Of a DNA stretch of 64,000 bases, positions 7,340-57,130 are shown piece after piece. Within the stretch, counting starts at the first letter, position 1; each line of letters opens with the position of its first letter. Made by a program: the position numbers and the translations under genes. The stretch lies in assembly GCF_988243305.1 (NCBI RefSeq), contig NZ_OZ547136.1, one strand, 5' to 3'. The notes below the pieces were generated by a model. That model worked only from the letters and a program-made list of their open reading frames with translations. It did no database searches and was not told the DNA's origin.

Positions 7340-7504
7340 GACAACTCCGGCAGGATACTAAAGGCCGCAAGTGTAACGCGAATCACGCGGCGGGCAAATA
7401 TCCGAACGACTGGAGCGAAGATAAAGCAAAGTAAAAAGCCTCGCATTCGACGAGGCTTTATAGCGAGATTGAAGCGTATTCACACTTCAGATCAGTGGAT
7501 TCGA

Positions 7505-7714
7505 TCAGATAGCTGTTACGTTAACAGCTGCCGGACCTTTCTGACCGTCCTGAATTTCGAACTCAACGTTCTGACCTTCAGCCAGAGTTTTGAAACCATT
7601 ACCCTGGATAGCAGAGAAGTGTACGAACACGTCTTTGCTGCCATCAGCCGGAGTAATGAAGCCAAAACCTTTAGACTCGTTGAACCACTTAACCTGACCT
7701 TTAATCTTTGCCAT
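7505..7714 (-). CDS. cspC: Cold-shock-like protein CspC
   Basis: 69-aa ORF with canonical cold-shock domain (KGFGFI, VFVHF). Confidence 0.97.
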
Positions 7715-7726
7715 TTGAAAAATTCC

Positions 7727-7870
7727 TTAGATTGTTTTCTTCGCCCGCAGGCATAACATAGATAAAACTGACACATTACTGCATGAGGCACCAATATAAG
7801 GCTCGGCAGAGAAGCGGTATTCAACGTCAACGTGTTTACTCAGGACTTCTTTACTGAAAATGCCACACAT
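7727..7870 (-). CDS. yobF: Small protein YobF (47 aa), cotranscribed upstream of cspC
   Basis: Hand translation of the minus strand gives [47 protein letters not shown]; below the ORF-track size cutoff. Confidence 0.85.
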
Positions 7871-8539
7871 AAACAGAACTGTACCTCGTTTAACCCGAAA
7901 TCTGTTATCACATACAACGTTAATTATGGCAAGCCATTTTTAAACATGTCTCGATCAGACGCACAAATCTCGATACGTCTTCCACTTTTTTTGCACACTT
8001 ATGCAACGGAATACGCGCCGATATATCATTGTGCTTAACCTTGCCAGTTCAGGCAGATACTTAAACTGACGTATTTTCTAACATAGTTCAATAAGTTCAG
8101 TTGTTCCAGGCCAGTGGGAGAAGTTATTACATAGTGCGTGCAATATCACATTTTCTGCTATGCAATGAATAAAAAGTTATATCACTTTTTCTCATAAAAC
8201 AGTCAGTTAACGGCTATCGATCACCCCAAAGAGAAGTCAATCGCCAAAGGTATTGTAAATTTAAAATAAGAAAAATTGATGAATGCGCAAAAAAATCAAG
8301 AGAGAAACGTTTCGCTAATAAATAATACCACACTTAATCACAAATCCGATGTAAACATCCTAATAAATTAATGGGCTAAATATCTTTTTCTGATATCCCG
8401 TTACGCAAATAAATAATATGATAATTATTTGAAGTCAGACCAGAGTTTTAATTTGAAGCAGTTGCACCATGGCAGTGCGTATAATCAGGATGAATTGAGT
8501 AACCCTTCAACGACGGGGTTACTCAAGATTGAGGAAGGA

Positions 8540-23345: not shown

Positions 23346-23612
23346 AAGTCAGCGAAGGGAATGCTTCTGGCTTTTAACAGATAAAAAGAGACCGAACACG
23401 ATTCCTGTATTCGGTCCAGGGAAATGGCTCTTGGGAGAGAGCCGTGCGCTAAAAGTTGGCATTAATGCAGGCTTAGTTGCCTTGCCCTTTAAGAATAGAT
23501 GACGACGCCAGGTTTTCCAGTTTGCGTGCAAAATGGTCAATAAAAAGCGCGGTGGTCATCAGCTTAAATGTTAAAAACCGCCCGTTCTGGTGAAAGAACT
23601 GAGGCGGTTTTT
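23346..23612 (+). ncRNA. ryeA: Antisense small RNA RyeA (SraC) overlapping SdsR; boundaries approximate
   Basis: Known antisense partner of SdsR in the pphA-yebY intergenic region; plus-strand hairpin and T-run at 23574-23612. Confidence 0.5.
23384..23485 (-). ncRNA. sdsR: Small regulatory RNA SdsR (RyeB)
   Basis: Minus strand reads GCAAGGCAACUAAGCCUGCAUUAAUGCC...GUGUUCGGUCUCUUUUU, matching the recalled SdsR sequence and its terminator. Confidence 0.8.
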
Positions 23613-26397: not shown

Positions 26398-29144
<2,747 letters not shown>

Positions 29145-29272
29145 TTATAAGGGTGGCAAAACTCACCGGAGATGCAAGCGAAACAGGGTAGTCATTGCTT
29201 AGCGAAAACGCCGTAAACCCTCGCCCAATGCGGGCGGGGATATAAGGCGAAAAGCCCGCAGGGCTTTAAAGA

Positions 29273-29698
29273 TCAATCAGGTGTTGACTGACTCTGAACG
29301 TAGGCTCTGAGCGTTTCAATCGTTGCCTCTCCGGTGCTACAGACAAAGTACGATCTCGACCACAAAAGCCCCGTTTTACTCTGCATACGTAAATGCGCGT
29401 TCTGCTGGCGTAGCAAACGTGATGATACCGATTTTAAATTATTGACCATCACACTGACCGCCAGTTTTGGCGGGTAGGCAACCAGCAGGTGTACATGGTC
29501 TGGCTCCCCGTCCATCTCAATAATTTCGCATTCAAGCTTTGCCGCAGCGGAGCCAAAAGCCTCACGCAACTGAGCGATCATCTGACTGTCGAATAGTTTG
29601 CGTCGATACTTTGTCGTAAAAATAAGGTGCACAACCAGCTTACTGACACTGTGTCGTTTGCGGAGAAATCCCGCCAGTAAATCATCATGATTACTCAA
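29273..29698 (-). CDS. tnpA: IS200-type Y1 (HUH) transposase TnpA
   Basis: 141-aa ORF with HUH motif (HVHLLV) and catalytic Tyr region (SYFVCSTG). Confidence 0.93.
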   Translation of the reverse strand: MSNHDDLLAGFLRKRHSVSKLVVHLIFTTKYRRKLFDSQMIAQLREAFGSAAAKLECEIIEMDGEPDHVHLLVAYPPKLAVSVMVNNLKSVSSRLLRQQNAHLRMQSKTGLLWSRSYFVCSTGEATIETLRAYVQSQSTPD

Positions 29699-29754
29699 TT
29701 GATATATTTACCTAAAGTGTTAAAATAAAAGCATTATATCAATGAGCGCTGATT

Positions 29755-30924
29755 ATGTTAAGAGCAACAAAAGTACGCATCTACCCGACACCAGAACAGG
29801 CTGAATTTATCAACGCCCAGTTCGGTGCAGTGCGTTTTGCGTACAACAAAGCTCTGCATATCAAGAAACATTCTTACCAGCGGCACCGCGTAAATTTAAA
29901 CCCGCGTAAAGACCTCAAACCACTGCTTGCAGTGGCGAAGAAATCCCGCCGGTATGGATGGCTTAAAGAATATGATTCTATTGCGTTGCAGCAGGCGGTA
30001 ATTAACCTCGACGTGGCTTTTTCTAACTTTTTCAATCCGAAACTGAAAGCAGGTAAACCAACCTTTAAAAGTAAACACGGCAGACAATCGAGCTATCATT
30101 GTGTTGGCATAAAAGTCCTTGATGGTGCGATAAAAATACCGAAAATCTTGCCGATTGAAGCGCGTTTACATCGTGAAATTACGGGAATGCTGAAAAGTAT
30201 CACGTTGAGCCGCAGCGCAACCGGGAAATACTACGCGTCGTTACTCTGTGACGACGGGATGGAAGCGCCGGCAAAGCCCGCACTGATATCAAATGTGACA
30301 GGGCTGGATATGGGGCTGGCGCATTTTGTCATCAAATCGGACGGCAATAAAATTGCCAGTCCCCGCCACCTAATCAATGCAAGTCGCAACCTGCGCCGGA
30401 AGCAGAAAGCACTGTCCCGTAAGAAAAAAGGGAGCGCAAACAGGCACAAAGCCAGAATACAACTTGCAGCCGTTCACGAACGGGTAGCCAGTGCCCGTGC
30501 CGATTTCCAGCACAAGTTATCTCGCGCAATTGTTGACGAAAACCAAGCGGTAATTGTCGAGACATTGAAAACGGCAAATATGATGAAAAATCACCATCTG
30601 GCTCGTGCGATAGGCGATGCTGGATGGTCTGGATTCATCACAAAACTGGAATACAAAGCAACAGAGAAAGGTGTGCATCTGGTGAAACTGGATCAATGGT
30701 TCGCCAGTTCGAAGACCTGCCACTGCTGCGGTCACAAAATGTCGGAGATGCCATTACATAAGCGCATCTGGCAGTGTCCAGAGTGTGGAGTTGAACATGA
30801 CCGCGATATCAACGCGGCGCTCAACATCAAACGCAAGGGCATACTGGAATTACAAGCGGCGGGACTCGTCGTTTCTGCCCATGGAGGCCAGCGTAAATCC
30901 GTCACACAGACGGTTGCGGCTTAA
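29755..30924 (+). CDS. tnpB: TnpB (OrfB) RNA-guided endonuclease
   Basis: 389-aa ORF with split RuvC-like motifs (GLDMG, VIVE, DRDINAA) and C-terminal CxxC...CxxC zinc finger. Confidence 0.93.
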   Translation: MLRATKVRIYPTPEQAEFINAQFGAVRFAYNKALHIKKHSYQRHRVNLNPRKDLKPLLAVAKKSRRYGWLKEYDSIALQQAVINLDVAFSNFFNPKLKAGKPTFKSKHGRQSSYHCVGIKVLDGAIKIPKILPIEARLHREITGMLKSITLSRSATGKYYASLLCDDGMEAPAKPALISNVTGLDMGLAHFVIKSDGNKIASPRHLINASRNLRRKQKALSRKKKGSANRHKARIQLAAVHERVASARADFQHKLSRAIVDENQAVIVETLKTANMMKNHHLARAIGDAGWSGFITKLEYKATEKGVHLVKLDQWFASSKTCHCCGHKMSEMPLHKRIWQCPECGVEHDRDINAALNIKRKGILELQAAGLVVSAHGGQRKSVTQTVAA

Positions 30925-30980
30925 GAAGTGGGAAGCCTCGCCCGACAGGGCGGGGAGCAGTCACATGATGACAGGTAATG
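30800..30980 (+). ncRNA. Putative omega RNA (reRNA) from the tnpB 3' end and IS right end; boundaries inferred
   Basis: By analogy with characterised TnpB systems, the guide RNA overlaps the tnpB 3' end and right-end hairpin (30936-30955); no direct evidence of transcription. Confidence 0.3.
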
Positions 30981-31087
30981 GCGCGGATATCGAATGTTAT
31001 GCAGACAGAGAAAATCAGCCTGCTCAAATGGCTGTGCGGTTCTGGATAGCCCGAAATAGTCAACTTCAGGCTATCCAGAGAGCGGAA

Positions 31088-31747
31088 TTATTCCGCCAAA
31101 GTGCGTTTTTGTTGTTCGAGATCGCGTTCAATGCCTTCACGAACGTCCTGGGGGATTTTCAGCGCGTCACCCAGTGCATTCAGGTAACTGCGTTCCATAA
31201 AATGGTCAATATCAATAGCCGCGCAGCTCAGGAAATAGATTTCCAGCGCCTCTTCTTCATTGCGGATCCCGGTAGCCAGGCGTTGTGGATCCAGCGGTTG
31301 TTCGATTGCCTGCTCAATGAGTACACGCCCCTGTTCTTCCACACCGGCTTCACGCAATTGCTGATCGATTGCCGCACGTTCTTTGGCATCAATATGACCA
31401 TCACTTTTAGCGGCAAAGACCAGCGCAAGGATCAAACGTTCCGTACGCTCATCCAGCGGCGTACTTTGCGCGCCAAACTGCGGTTCGTCCTGATGCGCCG
31501 CGCGAATTTTATCTTTGTATTTATTCCACAGCACCGTACCCGCTACCGCTCCGCCGCCAACCAGTAACGCGTTGGTGCCATATTTCGTAAGAAGTTTACG
31601 TGCTGATTTATTTGCGACCAGCAGCCCAGCCAGTCCGCCTAATGCGCCTGGCACTAAAAGTTTGCCCAATCCCTGATCCGCAGACGAGGAGGCAGAAGAA
31701 CTGCTTTGCCCAAGCAAGGATTGCAGTTGATTTAACCAGTTAGCCAT
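31088..31747 (-). CDS. yebE: DUF533 inner membrane protein YebE
   Basis: 219-aa ORF; synteny. Confidence 0.9.
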
Positions 31748-31954
31748 ATTTGCTCCTCAATAACCATTTTTAGTGCCTGTAGCATAGCGGATGAGGATGT
31801 CAGAAAATGTATATCGAGACAAAAGATGCGAAAATAAGCGGGGCGGTAGACCGTTATTCAAAGAAATTCGCGCCAGGTAAGGTGTTTACTGTATATCAGG
31901 TGATAAGGGTATTTTAGGTGAAAGTAGTTTGACGTTTTGAGTGGCACTGTTTGA

Positions 31955-48841: not shown

Positions 48842-50167
48842 GGAGATCCCCTCATAATTTCCCCAAAGCGTAACCATGTGTGAATAAATTTTGAGCTAGT
48901 AGGGTTGCAGCCACGAGTAAGTCTTCCCTTGTTATTGTGTAGCCAGAATGCCGCAAAACTTCCATGCCTAAGCGAACTGTTGAGAGTACGTTTCGATTTC
49001 TGACTGTGTTAGCCTGGAAGTGCTTGTCCCAACCTTGTTTCTGAGCATGAACGCCCGCAAGCCAACATGTTAGTTGAAGCATCAGGGCGATTAGCAGCAT
49101 GATATCAAAACGCTCTGAGCTGCTCGTTCGGCTATGGCGTAGGCCTAGTCCGTAGGCAGGACTTTTCAAGTCTCGGAAGGTTTCTTCAATCTGCATTCGC
49201 TTCGAATAGATATTAACAAGTTGTTTGGGTGTTCGAATTTCAACAGGTAAGTTAGTTGCTAGAACCCATGGCTCCTTTGCCGACGCTGAGTAGATTTTAG
49301 GTGACGGGTGGTGACAATGAGTCCGTGTCGAGCGCTGATTTTTTCGGCCTTTAGAGCGAGATTTATACAATAGAATTTGGCATGAGATTGGATTGCTTTT
49401 AGTCAGCCTCTTATAGCCTAAAGTCTTTGAGTGACTAGATGACATATCATGTAAGTTGCTGATAGGTTTCCAGTTTTCCGCTCCTAGGTCTGCATATTGT
49501 ACTTTTCCTCTTACTCGACTTAACCAGTACCAACCCAGCTTCTCAACGGATTTATACCATGGCACTTTAAAGCCAGCATCACTGACAATGAGCGGTGTGG
49601 TGTTACTCGGTAGAATGCTCGCAAGGTCGGCTAGAAATTGGTCATGAGCTTTCTTTGAACATTGCTCTGAAAGCGGGAACGCTTTCTCATAAAGAGTAAC
49701 AGAACGACCGTGTAGTGCGACTGAAGCTCGCAATACCATAAGTCGTTTTTGCTCACGAATATCAGACCAGTCAACAAGTACAATGGGCATCGTATTGCCC
49801 GAACAGATAAAGCTAGCATGCCAACGGTATACAGCGAGTCGCTCTTTGTGGAGGTGACGATTACCTAACAATCGGTCGATTCGTTTGATGTTATGTTTTG
49901 TTCTCGCTTTGGTTGGCAGGTTACGGCCAAGTTCGGTAAGAGTGAGAGTTTTACAGTCAAGTAATGCGTGGCAAGCCAACGTTAAGCTGTTGAGTCGTTT
50001 TAAGTGTAATTCGGGGCAGAATTGGTAAAGAGAGTCGTGTAAAATATCGAGTTCGCACATCTTGTTGTCTGATTATTGATTTTTGGCGAAACCATTTGAT
50101 CATATGACAAGATGTGTATCTACCTTAACTTAATGATTTTTACCAAAATCATTAGGGGATTCATCAG
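48839..50167 (-). mobile_element. IS10 insertion sequence (1329 bp)
   Basis: 402-aa IS10 transposase ORF; outside end reads CTGATGAATCCCCTAATGATTTTGGTA at 50167; identical 9-bp direct repeats cgtttggtg at 48830-48838 and 50168-50176. Confidence 0.88.
48852..50060 (-). CDS. IS10 (IS4-family) transposase
   Basis: 402-aa ORF MCELDILHDSLYQFCPELHLKRLNSLTLACHALLDCKTLTL... matching the recalled Tn10/IS10 transposase. Confidence 0.95.
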   Translation of the reverse strand: MCELDILHDSLYQFCPELHLKRLNSLTLACHALLDCKTLTLTELGRNLPTKARTKHNIKRIDRLLGNRHLHKERLAVYRWHASFICSGNTMPIVLVDWSDIREQKRLMVLRASVALHGRSVTLYEKAFPLSEQCSKKAHDQFLADLASILPSNTTPLIVSDAGFKVPWYKSVEKLGWYWLSRVRGKVQYADLGAENWKPISNLHDMSSSHSKTLGYKRLTKSNPISCQILLYKSRSKGRKNQRSTRTHCHHPSPKIYSASAKEPWVLATNLPVEIRTPKQLVNIYSKRMQIEETFRDLKSPAYGLGLRHSRTSSSERFDIMLLIALMLQLTCWLAGVHAQKQGWDKHFQANTVRNRNVLSTVRLGMEVLRHSGYTITREDLLVAATLLAQNLFTHGYALGKL

Positions 50168-56545: not shown

Positions 56546-57130
56546 TTACTCACTGACAGGGTTCGTAGGCCACTCAATATCAGGTGCAGTTGATGTATCA
56601 ACACGGTTCAGCAACACCCGATACTTCTTCCAGGCTTCCAGCAACGAGTTTTCTTCCTCCGTTGCGATTTCCAGATCTGCAGCATCCTGAAGCGGCGCAA
56701 TATGCTCACTGGCTACCTGCATCAGGTTGTTTTTTGTTTCTTCCGCCTCCCGGATCCGGAACAGTTTTTCTGCTTCCGTATCCTTCACCCAGGCTGTGCC
56801 GTTCCACTTCTGAAACTCCCCTTCCGGCGATAACCAGGTAACATTTTCCGGTAACGGACCGAGTTCAGAAATAAATAACGCGTCGCCGGAAGCCACGTCA
56901 TAAACCGTTTTACCCCGATGGTCTTCAAAGAGATGCCACGATGACTCATCACTGTTGAAAACAGCCACGAAGCCAGCAGGAATATCTGGTGGTGCAATAT
57001 CGGTACTGTTTGCTGGCAGACCTGTATGAGGCGGAATATATGCGTCACCTTCACCAATAAATTCATTAGTTCCGGCCAGCAGATTATAAATTTTTATGGT
57101 CCGTGGTTGTTCACTCATTCTGAATGCCAT
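56546..57130 (-). CDS. tfa: Tail fiber assembly protein Tfa
   Basis: 194-aa ORF overlapping the stf stop by 1 nt; matches lambdoid Tfa. Confidence 0.92.

What the first reader, a model, noticed from the sequence alone, without database searches (positions are those of the whole stretch)
29199..30965. IS200/IS605-family element with intact TnpB and matching end hairpins
tnpA (HUH Y1 transposase) and tnpB are divergently arranged and both appear intact. Both ends carry the same hairpin stem (cctcgccc...gggcgggg; left cctcgcccaatgcgggcgggg, right cctcgcccgacagggcgggg). TnpB is an RNA-guided nuclease whose guide RNA derives from the right end, so this copy may encode a functional nuclease-guide pair aimed at the sequence it neighbours. 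The element lies between ptrB and yebE, where I recall no element in K-12.
Basis: partly seen in the sequence, partly recalled or inferred. Interest (0 to 1): 0.55.

Follow-up and report, generated by a model that had tools for sequence, protein, structure and literature searches.

The report
Known E. coli insertion sequence ISEc46
This is an intact copy of ISEc46, a catalogued small mobile element, sitting between ptrB and yebE and carrying a transposase plus an RNA-guided nuclease with its guide RNA; it is ordinary and already annotated in public genomes.

Summary
Comparison with the empty K-12 site puts the element at window 29203..30964 (1762 bp), with no target duplication, inserted 3' of TTAG. 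RefSeq annotates near-identical copies as "IS200/IS605-like element ISEc46" tnpA plus "RNA-guided endonuclease InsQ/TnpB".

- **TnpA** (141 aa) keeps the HUH motif (H68/H70) and Y133.
- **TnpB** (389 aa) keeps the RuvC triad D185/E269/D351 and the CxxC…CxxC zinc finger.
- **End hairpins** are real, lie on the same strand, are absent from the empty site, and are conserved across about 80 gammaproteobacterial relatives.
- **Guide-RNA scaffold** (about 30854..30964) is supported by strong covariation. A covariance model built only from relatives scores it 134 bits (E about 1e-36), and it has the ISDra2 layout of four stems plus a pseudoknot.

The predicted target, TTAG followed by ATGATGACAGGTAATG, is exactly the empty ptrB-yebE site. 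That site is present in 5023 of 5426 complete E. coli genomes, and 400 carry the insertion.

Two minor peculiarities of this copy are a 1-nt deletion in the left-end A-run and an R231H change in TnpB. RNA expression and nuclease or transposase activity were not tested. Verdict: correct reading of an already known element, of low interest.

The parts
29199..29202 (+). Host tetranucleotide TTAG: the insertion target and left cleavage site, and the predicted TAM for TnpB.
   Evidence: TTAG is retained in the K-12 empty site. It abuts the left end at 3 of 3 independent E. coli insertion sites. It is conserved at positions -4..-1 in 54-58 of 59 unique left flanks of family members.
29203..30964 (+). 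Complete ISEc46 element (1762 bp), with the top strand on the window + strand.
   Evidence: Boundaries come from the empty-site alignment. Copies 99.4-99.9% identical are annotated as ISEc46 in RefSeq.
29203..29218 (+). Left-end linker CGAAAACGCCGTAAAC. It includes the left guide tetranucleotide AAAC (29215-29218), which is complementary position by position to TTAG. This copy has A4 where the three canonical (1763-bp) copies examined have A5.
   Evidence: Searches show the other copies carry CGAAAAACGCC or CGAAACCGCC. The IS608 rule (cleavage site TTAC, guide AAAG) is from PMC3201880.
29219..29239 (+). Left subterminal imperfect hairpin (TnpA binding site).
   Evidence: It is conserved in relatives.
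29273..29698 (-). tnpA, a Y1 HUH transposase of 141 aa with a TTG start. The protein is identical to WP_000064873.1.
   Evidence: H68/H70/Y133 align to IS608 H64/H66/Y127.
29699..29761 (.). Intergenic region holding two overlapping promoter-like sites. The + strand site (TTGATA-16-TAAAAT) faces tnpB and the - strand site (TTAACA-17-TATAAT) faces tnpA.
   Evidence: These are consensus matches only.
29755..30924 (+). tnpB, an RNA-guided endonuclease of 389 aa. It has the RuvC triad D185/E269/D351 and zinc-finger residues C322/C325/C341/C344. It carries R231H relative to WP_000942662.1.
30854..30964 (+). Predicted guide-RNA (omega RNA) scaffold.
- Stem 1: 30854-60 with 30868-74.
- Pseudoknot: GACU 30863-66 with AGUC 30959-62.
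- Stem 2: 30878-82 with 30928-32.
- Stem 3a: 30886-92 with 30916-21.
- Stem 3b: 30899-903 with 30909-13.
- Stem 4: the right-end hairpin.
   Evidence: Covariation is shown. The covariance-model hit spans 30840-30964 at 134 bits. The layout matches the ISDra2 guide RNA (PMC10097598).
30936..30955 (+). Right subterminal imperfect hairpin, serving as TnpA binding site and as guide-RNA stem 4. It is preceded by the right guide tetranucleotide GAAG (30932-30935).
30961..30964 (+). Right cleavage site TCAC, the last 4 nt of the element.
   Evidence: The motif ...AGCAGTCAC| is conserved in relatives and the flanks diverge immediately after it.
30965..30980 (+). Predicted 16-nt guide segment ATGATGACAGGTAATG, transcribed from host flank.
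   Evidence: Inferred by analogy with ISDra2. It is identical to the K-12 sequence that follows TTAG. Here it is preceded by TCAC rather than TTAG, so this copy should be immune to its own nuclease.

Best explanation
This is an intact, autonomous IS200/IS605-family insertion sequence, ISEc46, inserted 3' of TTAG in the yebE-ptrB intergenic region, 85 bp upstream of the ptrB start codon.

**Transposition (inferred from the IS608 paradigm).** A TnpA dimer binds the two same-strand imperfect hairpins when the + strand is single-stranded. The cleavage sites TTAG| (29202/29203) and TCAC| (30964/30965) are positioned by pairing with the tetranucleotides AAAC and GAAG, which lie just 5' of each hairpin. 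TnpA excises a single-stranded circle, reseals the donor precisely, and re-inserts the circle 3' of another TTAG.

**Nuclease (inferred from the ISDra2 and Geobacillus paradigms).** The tnpB transcript is processed into a guide RNA. Its scaffold of about 111 nt is 30854-30964, and its guide of about 16 nt is read from the flank (ATGATGACAGGTAATG). TnpB loaded with this RNA cuts DNA carrying TTAG followed by that sequence, which is the empty or freshly excised ptrB-yebE site. Recombination with a sister copy then restores the element. The resident copy is protected because TCAC, not TTAG, precedes the guide-matching flank.

**Shown here:** the anatomy, the exact ends, the target motif, the intact catalytic residues, the conserved and covarying RNA structure, and the match between guide and empty site.

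**Inferred:** transcription and processing of the RNA, TAM specificity, and the cleavage and transposition activities.
For: **Identity**
- Copies 99.4-99.9% identical are annotated as ISEc46 tnpA plus InsQ/TnpB in RefSeq.
- TnpA matches NF033573 at 141.8 bits against a cutoff of 55. TnpB matches NF040570 at 342.7 bits against a cutoff of 100.

**Ends and target**
- The K-12 empty site reads TTAG|ATGATG, with no duplication and no hairpins.
- Three independent E. coli insertion sites all have TTAG at the left.
- Of 59 unique family flanks, 54-58 have T, T, A, G at positions -4..-1.
- Right ends all stop at AGCAGTCAC and then diverge.

**Proteins**
- TnpB matches ISDra2 TnpB at E=3.6e-74 with the D-E-D triad and zinc finger aligned.
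- TnpA matches IS608 TnpA at E=5e-19 with HUH and Tyr aligned.

**Guide RNA**
- Across 35 pairs, 97.6% of cells are paired, against 34-55% when partners are slid.
- 17 pairs show compensatory changes, and the covariation score is 0.378 against 0.153 in shuffles, with 0 of 500 shuffles reaching it.
- A covariance model built without the window or its closest relatives gives one full-length hit at 30840-30964, 134 bits, E about 1e-36, ending exactly at the IS boundary.
- Helix positions map one-to-one onto the ISDra2 guide-RNA stems 1-4 and pseudoknot.

**Target availability**
- The empty junction is present in 5023 of 5426 genomes and the occupied junction in 400.
Against: - No expression or activity data exist for this element in the searched literature. 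The ISEc46 papers found are genome surveys, and no paper combines TnpB, TAM and TTAG.
- No Rfam family matches the right end.
- TnpB falls below the cutoff of the narrow NCBIfam model NF038281 (383.9 against 425).
- This copy has a 1-nt deletion in the left-end linker, between the cleavage site and the guide/hairpin. This could reduce excision, or it could be a homopolymer sequencing error.
- The element sits at one and the same site in about 400 genomes and is found elsewhere only rarely, so transposition is infrequent.
- The pseudoknot pairing is conserved but shows no compensatory change.
- Covariation in stem 4 could reflect the DNA hairpin needed by TnpA rather than an RNA structure.
Confidence: 0.9

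Rival explanations
1. The copy is a fixed, effectively immobile relic. Its reading frames are still open, but it no longer transposes, for example because of the left-end 1-nt deletion, and TnpB and its guide RNA have no current role.
For: - The same insertion site occurs in about 400 genomes, and only about 55 genomes carry full-length copies elsewhere only.
- The window has a single copy.
- The left-end A-run is 1 nt shorter than in the three canonical copies examined.
- This allele carries a TnpB R231H substitution.
Against: - Both reading frames and all catalytic residues are intact.
- The guide-RNA scaffold has every predicted pair standard.
- Near-identical copies (99.5-99.7% to the window element) occur at two or more other sites, including a 5.8-kb plasmid, which indicates recent mobility of the family.
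- R231 aligns to a non-conserved position (G240 of ISDra2).
Confidence: 0.25
2. The matching end hairpins are host intergenic repeats (REP-like sequences or terminators) rather than transposon ends.
For: They are GC-rich imperfect palindromes in an intergenic region. A separate host hairpin lies nearby at 31041-31079.
Against: - Both hairpins are absent from the K-12 empty site and lie inside the inserted segment.
- They travel with the element to other sites.
- They are conserved, with compensatory changes, in relatives from other genera.
Confidence: 0.01
3. TnpB here is a domesticated, nuclease-dead RNA-guided regulator (TldR-like) rather than a nuclease.
For: Such domestications of TnpB are known (PMC10705468, listed). 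The locus is stably inherited.
Against: - The RuvC D185/E269/D351 triad and the zinc finger are all present.
- The gene is still inside a complete IS with tnpA and both ends.
- The guide matches the transposon's own empty site rather than a promoter.
Confidence: 0.02

Closest known systems
ISEc46 (IS200/IS605 family; ISfinder name as used by NCBI PGAP annotation)
   Same: The sequence is essentially the same: 99.4-99.9% identity to copies annotated as ISEc46, with the same gene order, ends and length class. The TnpA protein is identical to WP_000064873.1.
   Different: This copy is 1762 bp against 1763 bp, because the left-end A-run is A4 rather than A5. Its TnpB has R231H. The ISfinder reference sequence itself could not be consulted.
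ISDra2 TnpB and its guide RNA (Deinococcus radiodurans; PDB 8EXA, 8H1J, 8BF8)
   Same: - TnpB is homologous at E=3.6e-74 over residues 4-380, with the identical catalytic triad and zinc finger.
- The guide-RNA scaffold of about 111-116 nt overlaps the 3' end of tnpB and the right end.
- It has four stems, and a pseudoknot between the stem-1 loop (about -102..-99) and the nucleotides just 5' of the guide (-6..-3). A tetraloop hairpin sits at -21..-18.
   Different: - The target/TAM is TTAG (4 nt) rather than TTGAT.
- tnpA and tnpB are divergent here.
- No Rfam family reached the threshold for this scaffold.
- No biochemical data exist for this element.
IS608 (Helicobacter pylori) TnpA single-strand transposition
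   Same: - It has a Y1 HUH transposase (E=5e-19) and same-strand imperfect hairpins.
- The left cleavage site lies upstream of the left hairpin (16-17 nt here, 19 nt in IS608).
- The right cleavage site lies downstream of the right hairpin (9 nt here, 10 nt in IS608).
- A tetranucleotide 5' of each hairpin matches the cleavage site: TTAG with AAAC here, TTAC with AAAG in IS608.
   Different: The target is TTAG rather than TTAC, which amounts to a compensatory swap at the fourth position. Gene orientation differs. The IS608 right guide sequence (GAAT) is recalled from memory and was not verified.
tnpB-only (IS1341-like) relatives in Photorhabdus and on E. coli plasmids
   Same: They have the same ends, the same TTAG target and the same guide-RNA scaffold.
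   Different: They lack tnpA: the left end lies about 70-145 bp upstream of tnpB. They are multi-copy in Photorhabdus. Protein identity is 77-91% for the Photorhabdus copies, and the plasmid copies are 79-81% identical in DNA.

Membership tests
IS200/IS605 family insertion sequence | Encodes a Y1 HUH transposase (TnpA) with the His-hydrophobic-His motif and a catalytic Tyr | tested here: met
   NF033573 scores 141.8 bits against a cutoff of 55. H68-V-H70 and Y133 align to IS608 H64/H66/Y127.
IS200/IS605 family insertion sequence | No terminal inverted repeats and no target-site duplication | tested here: met
   The empty site TTAG|ATGATG compared with the occupied site TTAG|CGAAAA...GTCAC|ATGATG shows no duplicated bases.
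IS200/IS605 family insertion sequence | Subterminal imperfect hairpins on the same strand at both ends | tested here: met
   The hairpins are at 29219-29239 and 30936-30955, both on the + strand, each with a conserved T.G mismatch.
IS200/IS605 family insertion sequence | Insertion 3' of a fixed tetra- or pentanucleotide that abuts the left end | tested here: met
   TTAG is present at 3 of 3 E. coli sites and in 54-58 of 59 unique family flanks.
IS200/IS605 family insertion sequence | Cleavage sites matched by guide tetranucleotides 5' of each hairpin | tested here: met
   Left: TTAG with AAAC (29215-18). Right: TCAC with GAAG (30932-35). The pattern is the same as IS608 TTAC with AAAG. This is a sequence-level test only.
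IS200/IS605 family insertion sequence | Single-strand excision and integration activity | not testable with these tools
   Only indirect evidence is available: near-identical copies at three or more sites.
TnpB / OMEGA RNA-guided nuclease | RuvC-like D-E-D catalytic triad and C-terminal zinc finger | tested here: met
   D185/E269/D351 align to ISDra2 D191/E278/D361, and C322/C325/C341/C344 are present. NF040570 scores 342.7 against a cutoff of 100, but NF038281 scores 383.9, below its cutoff of 425.
TnpB / OMEGA RNA-guided nuclease | Structured guide-RNA scaffold overlapping the 3' end of tnpB and the right end, and ending at the IS boundary | tested here: met
   17 of 35 pairs show compensatory changes, with 0 of 500 shuffles reaching the observed score. 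The covariance-model hit is 134 bits and ends at 30964. No Rfam family matches.
TnpB / OMEGA RNA-guided nuclease | Guide taken from the flank, with a TAM equal to the transposon target motif, so that the empty site is the target | tested here: inconclusive
   At sequence level, TTAG plus the flank equals the K-12 empty site, which is present in 5023 of 5426 genomes. TAM specificity and guide length were not measured.
TnpB / OMEGA RNA-guided nuclease | RNA expression, RNA processing and RNA-guided DNA cleavage | not testable with these tools
   No data were found in the searched literature.
ISEc46 (named element) | At least 95% nucleotide identity to the reference element | tested here: inconclusive
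   Identity is 99.4-99.9% to RefSeq loci whose tnpA is labelled 'ISEc46 family transposase'. The ISfinder reference itself is not available here.

The most novel reading that the evidence does not exclude
ISEc46 TnpB, with a previously unreported TTAG TAM, is an active RNA-guided nuclease in its native E. coli host. Its guide matches the empty ptrB-yebE allele carried by about 93% of E. coli, so it would act as a population-level allele drive or recombination barrier: any incoming or resealed empty allele would be cut and converted back to the occupied state.
Probability: 0.4. Interest if true: 0.3.

Novelty: already known. Interest (0 to 1): 0.12.

Why it matters
The finding matters little beyond correct annotation. 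The element, its family, its transposition chemistry and the role of TnpB and its guide RNA are all established, and the locus is already labelled ISEc46 in RefSeq.

This analysis adds a few modest points:
- The exact ends in this window.
- The TTAG target and predicted TAM for the ISEc46 family.
- A covariation-supported guide-RNA structure that mirrors ISDra2.
- The insertion frequency in E. coli: 400 occupied against 5023 empty sites among 5426 complete genomes.

ISEc46 could serve as a convenient native E. coli system for studying TnpB-mediated transposon retention. No open question hinges on it.

Tried and rejected
1. **Rfam scan.** A permissive scan of 28500-31800 found no guide-RNA family. 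The only match was a chance hit to mir-4662 at 31041-31079, which is a host hairpin just past the 3' end of yebE.
2. **Long-range helix.** RNAalifold proposed a helix between the Cys codons (alignment columns 21-25) and AGCAG at the right end (columns 276-280). It has no compensatory changes and competes with the ISDra2-like pseudoknot, so I rejected it in favour of the pseudoknot.
3. **Possible antisense regulator.** An 18 of 20 nt match links tnpB (29935-54) to the strand antisense to the tnpA 5' coding region (29660-79). It is not conserved in relatives (11-14 of 20), so I treated it as chance.
4. **Overcount of occupied sites.** My first count, 448 genomes with at least 80% coverage of the flanked query, was inflated because the element alone is 82% of that query. 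I replaced it with junction-specific searches: 400 occupied and 5023 empty.
5. **Other copies.** I searched the window for further copies or solo ends and found none.
6. **Literature.** I searched for functional work on ISEc46 TnpB or a TTAG TAM and found none.

Full report
**Observation**

The window region holds two uninterrupted divergent reading frames: 29273-29698 on the minus strand (141 aa, TTG start) and 29755-30924 on the plus strand (389 aa). CCTCGCCC-AATGC-GGGCGGGG is at 29219-29239 and CCTCGCCC-GACA-GGGCGGGG is at 30936-30955. The left pattern occurs once in 64 kb, against none expected in shuffles.

**Exact ends**

K-12 MG1655 has nothing between ptrB and yebE. Its intergenic sequence reads ...CATTGCTTAG|ATGATGACAGGTAATGG.... 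The window reads ...CATTGCTTAG|CGAAAACGCC...GAGCAGTCAC|ATGATGACAGG....

The inserted segment is therefore 29203-30964 (1762 bp). No base is duplicated, and both hairpins lie inside the insert. This refutes the possibility that the hairpins are host sequence.

**Identity**

A megablast search against 5426 complete E. coli genomes finds copies of 99.4-99.9% identity. RefSeq labels these 'IS200/IS605-like element ISEc46 family transposase' and 'RNA-guided endonuclease InsQ/TnpB family protein'. ISEc46 appears in many E. coli mobilome surveys. The element is thus catalogued and routinely annotated.

**Proteins**

- TnpA matches NCBIfam NF033573 at 141.8 bits against a cutoff of 55. It aligns to IS608 TnpA (PDB 2A6M, E=5e-19), with H68-V-H70 on the HUH motif and Y133 on Y127. 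The protein is identical to WP_000064873.1.
- TnpB matches NF040570 at 342.7 bits against a cutoff of 100, but falls below the cutoff of the narrower NF038281 (383.9 against 425).
- TnpB aligns to ISDra2 TnpB (8EXA, 8BF8, 8H1J; E=3.6e-74) over residues 4-380. D185, E269 and D351 fall on D191, E278 and D361, and the C322/C325/C341/C344 zinc finger is conserved.
- The only TnpB difference from the common allele WP_000942662.1 is R231H, at a position that is not conserved in ISDra2.

**Ends and target**

Near-identical copies at two other E. coli sites also have TTAG immediately left of the element and unrelated sequence right of ...AGCAGTCAC. One site is a 5.8-kb plasmid next to a retron, and the other is the yfaY/IclR region.

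A scan of one genome per species returned 80 related loci from Photorhabdus, Serratia, Rahnella, Idiomarina, Halomonas-group bacteria and others. In these relatives:
- The right end always stops at AGCAGTCAC, after which the flanks diverge.
- The left end begins after TTAG.
- Among 59 unique left flanks, positions -4..-1 are T, T, A, G in 54, 54, 56 and 58 cases. There is only a weak T preference at -5.

The tetranucleotides just 5' of the hairpins, AAAC on the left and GAAG on the right, match the cleavage sites TTAG and TCAC in the same position-by-position way as IS608's AAAG with TTAC (PMC3201880). The IS608 right-end guide GAAT is from my memory only. The left spacing is 16 nt in this copy and 17 nt in the canonical copies, against 19 nt in IS608. 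The right spacing is 9 nt, against 10 nt in IS608.

**Guide RNA**

I aligned the last 260 nt of 47 distinct family members. RNAalifold together with explicit pair counting supports five helices in the last 111 nt, plus a conserved pseudoknot:
- 97.6% of cells are paired, against 34-55% when partners are slid by 1-3 columns.
- 17 of 35 pairs show compensatory double changes.
- The covariation score is 0.378 against 0.153±0.007 in shuffles, and 0 of 500 shuffles reach it.

In window coordinates the structure is:

| Element | Position |
|---|---|
| Stem 1 | 30854-60 with 30868-74 |
| Pseudoknot | GACU 30863-66 with AGUC 30959-62 |
| Stem 2 | 30878-82 with 30928-32 |
| Stem 3a | 30886-92 with 30916-21 |
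| Stem 3b | 30899-903 with 30909-13 |
| Stem 4 | right-end hairpin 30936-43 with 30948-55 (GACA tetraloop) |

This maps one-to-one onto the cryo-EM architecture of the ISDra2 guide RNA. That RNA has a 116-nt scaffold with stems 1-4, a pseudoknot between -5..-3 and -105..-103, and a tetraloop at -20..-17 (PMC10097598). The pseudoknot here is conserved (96.7% paired) but has no compensatory changes.

A covariance model built from 34 relatives, excluding the window and its closest kin, finds one strong hit in the 64-kb window. The hit spans 30840-30964 at 134 bits (E about 1e-36), is full length, has all pairs standard, and ends exactly at the IS boundary. The only other match is an insignificant one at the left-end hairpin (8.2 bits). 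Rfam has no family matching this scaffold.

**Target of the guide**

By analogy with ISDra2, the guide is the 16 nt right of the boundary, ATGATGACAGGTAATG (30965-30980). TTAG followed by this sequence is exactly the K-12 empty site.

The uninterrupted empty junction is present in 5023 of 5426 genomes, and the occupied right junction in 400. A full-length element is present somewhere in 455 genomes. In the resident copy the guide-matching flank is preceded by TCAC rather than TTAG, and no other TTAG-plus-seed match exists in the window. This is the arrangement expected for the published retention mechanism, in which TnpB cuts the empty donor site and recombination restores the element (Karvelis 2021, PMC8612924; Meers 2023 preprint, PMC10055086; both listed but not read here, mechanism from my own knowledge).

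**Peculiarities of this copy**

The left-end linker reads CGAAAAC (A4), whereas three canonical copies read CGAAAAAC (A5) and one variant reads CGAAACC. The deletion lies between the cleavage site and the guide/hairpin. It could be a homopolymer sequencing error or could mildly affect excision; this is untested.

The 56-bp tnpA-tnpB spacer contains two overlapping good promoter matches, one for each gene. Each extends over the other gene's start codon. This suggests competition between the two promoters, but it rests on consensus matches only.

The insertion lies 85 bp upstream of the ptrB start codon with tnpA co-oriented with ptrB, so it may alter ptrB transcription. This is inference and was not tested.

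**Verdict**

The element is the already catalogued ISEc46, a standard IS605-type element with a standard TnpB and guide-RNA module. Expression and activity of the RNA, nuclease and transposase remain inferred. Novelty: already known. Interest: low.

Noticed in passing
window 29203-29210: The left-end A-run is one base shorter (A4) than in the three canonical (1763-bp) ISEc46 copies examined (A5); a fourth copy has the variant CGAAACC. This could be a real deletion in the linker between the cleavage site and the hairpin, or a homopolymer sequencing error.
   Followed up: partly
window 29699-29761: Two strong, overlapping promoter-like sites sit in the tnpA-tnpB spacer. The tnpA site matches 11 of 12 positions with a TG extension, and the tnpB site matches 10 of 12 with TG. 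Each lies over the other gene's start codon, which suggests mutually exclusive RNA polymerase binding.
   Followed up: no
window 31041-31079: A near-perfect stem-loop (17 paired model positions) lies just past the 3' end of yebE and is likely its terminator. It gave a chance sub-threshold Rfam match to mir-4662.
   Followed up: no
window 48852-50122: There is an IS10-like element here: a 402-aa reading frame at 48852-50060 on the minus strand, with an Rfam RNA-OUT antisense RNA match at 50053-50122 (99.5 bits).
   Followed up: partly
window 23379-23523: The overlapping sRNA pair SraC/RyeA (+ strand) and SdsR/RyeB (- strand) is found at Rfam gathering threshold.
   Followed up: no
window 56589-56787 and 7430-7890: Rfam matches the sRNA family IS009 (224 bits) at 56589-56787 and a cspA-type thermoregulator 5' UTR (140 bits) at 7430-7890. 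Both are ordinary E. coli features.
   Followed up: no
L007 (JAIJJM010000608.1, 'MAG: Collinsella sp.'): This 1960-bp MAG contig carries ISEc46 (TnpB match 99% identical) together with the E. coli ptrB-yebE flanks. It is almost certainly E. coli contamination binned into an actinobacterial MAG.
   Followed up: partly
L088 (NZ_CP063350.1 plasmid pBS15R-A_1) and hits H65-H73: E. coli plasmids carry a tnpB-only relative (79-81% identical). In the one copy inspected (L088), the ISEc46-type left end (TTAG|CGAAAAACGCCGTAAAC...) lies about 70 bp upstream of tnpB and the right end is near-identical. This looks like a non-autonomous derivative that ISEc46 TnpA could plausibly mobilise in trans.
   Followed up: partly
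L087 (NZ_CP033379.1 plasmid pL73-2, locus 1501-1538) and hits H83-H90: A solo 38-bp ISEc46 right-end fragment (hairpin plus AGCAGTCAC, 100% identical) recurs on many E. coli plasmids. In the one copy inspected it lies upstream of hokD and next to IS3-family elements.
   Followed up: partly
L003 (NZ_AP041808.1, 5.8-kb plasmid pJNE070796_3): A full ISEc46 copy is inserted, 3' of TTAG, in a small plasmid immediately upstream of a reverse transcriptase gene and a retron Se72-family effector gene.
   Followed up: no
L014-L038 and others (Photorhabdus spp.): Photorhabdus genomes carry many copies of this family. At least eight loci come from P. thracensis alone, mostly tnpB-only with the left end about 145 bp upstream of tnpB. 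By contrast, most E. coli carriers have a single copy (median one place per genome).
   Followed up: no
A2 columns 246-266 (for example L066, L071, L080): In Halomonas- and Idiomarina-group relatives the right-end hairpin loop has grown into a nested extra hairpin (GTGGCGC-TTTA-GCGCTTA). This extends guide-RNA stem 4 while keeping the basal stem and its T.G mismatch.
   Followed up: no
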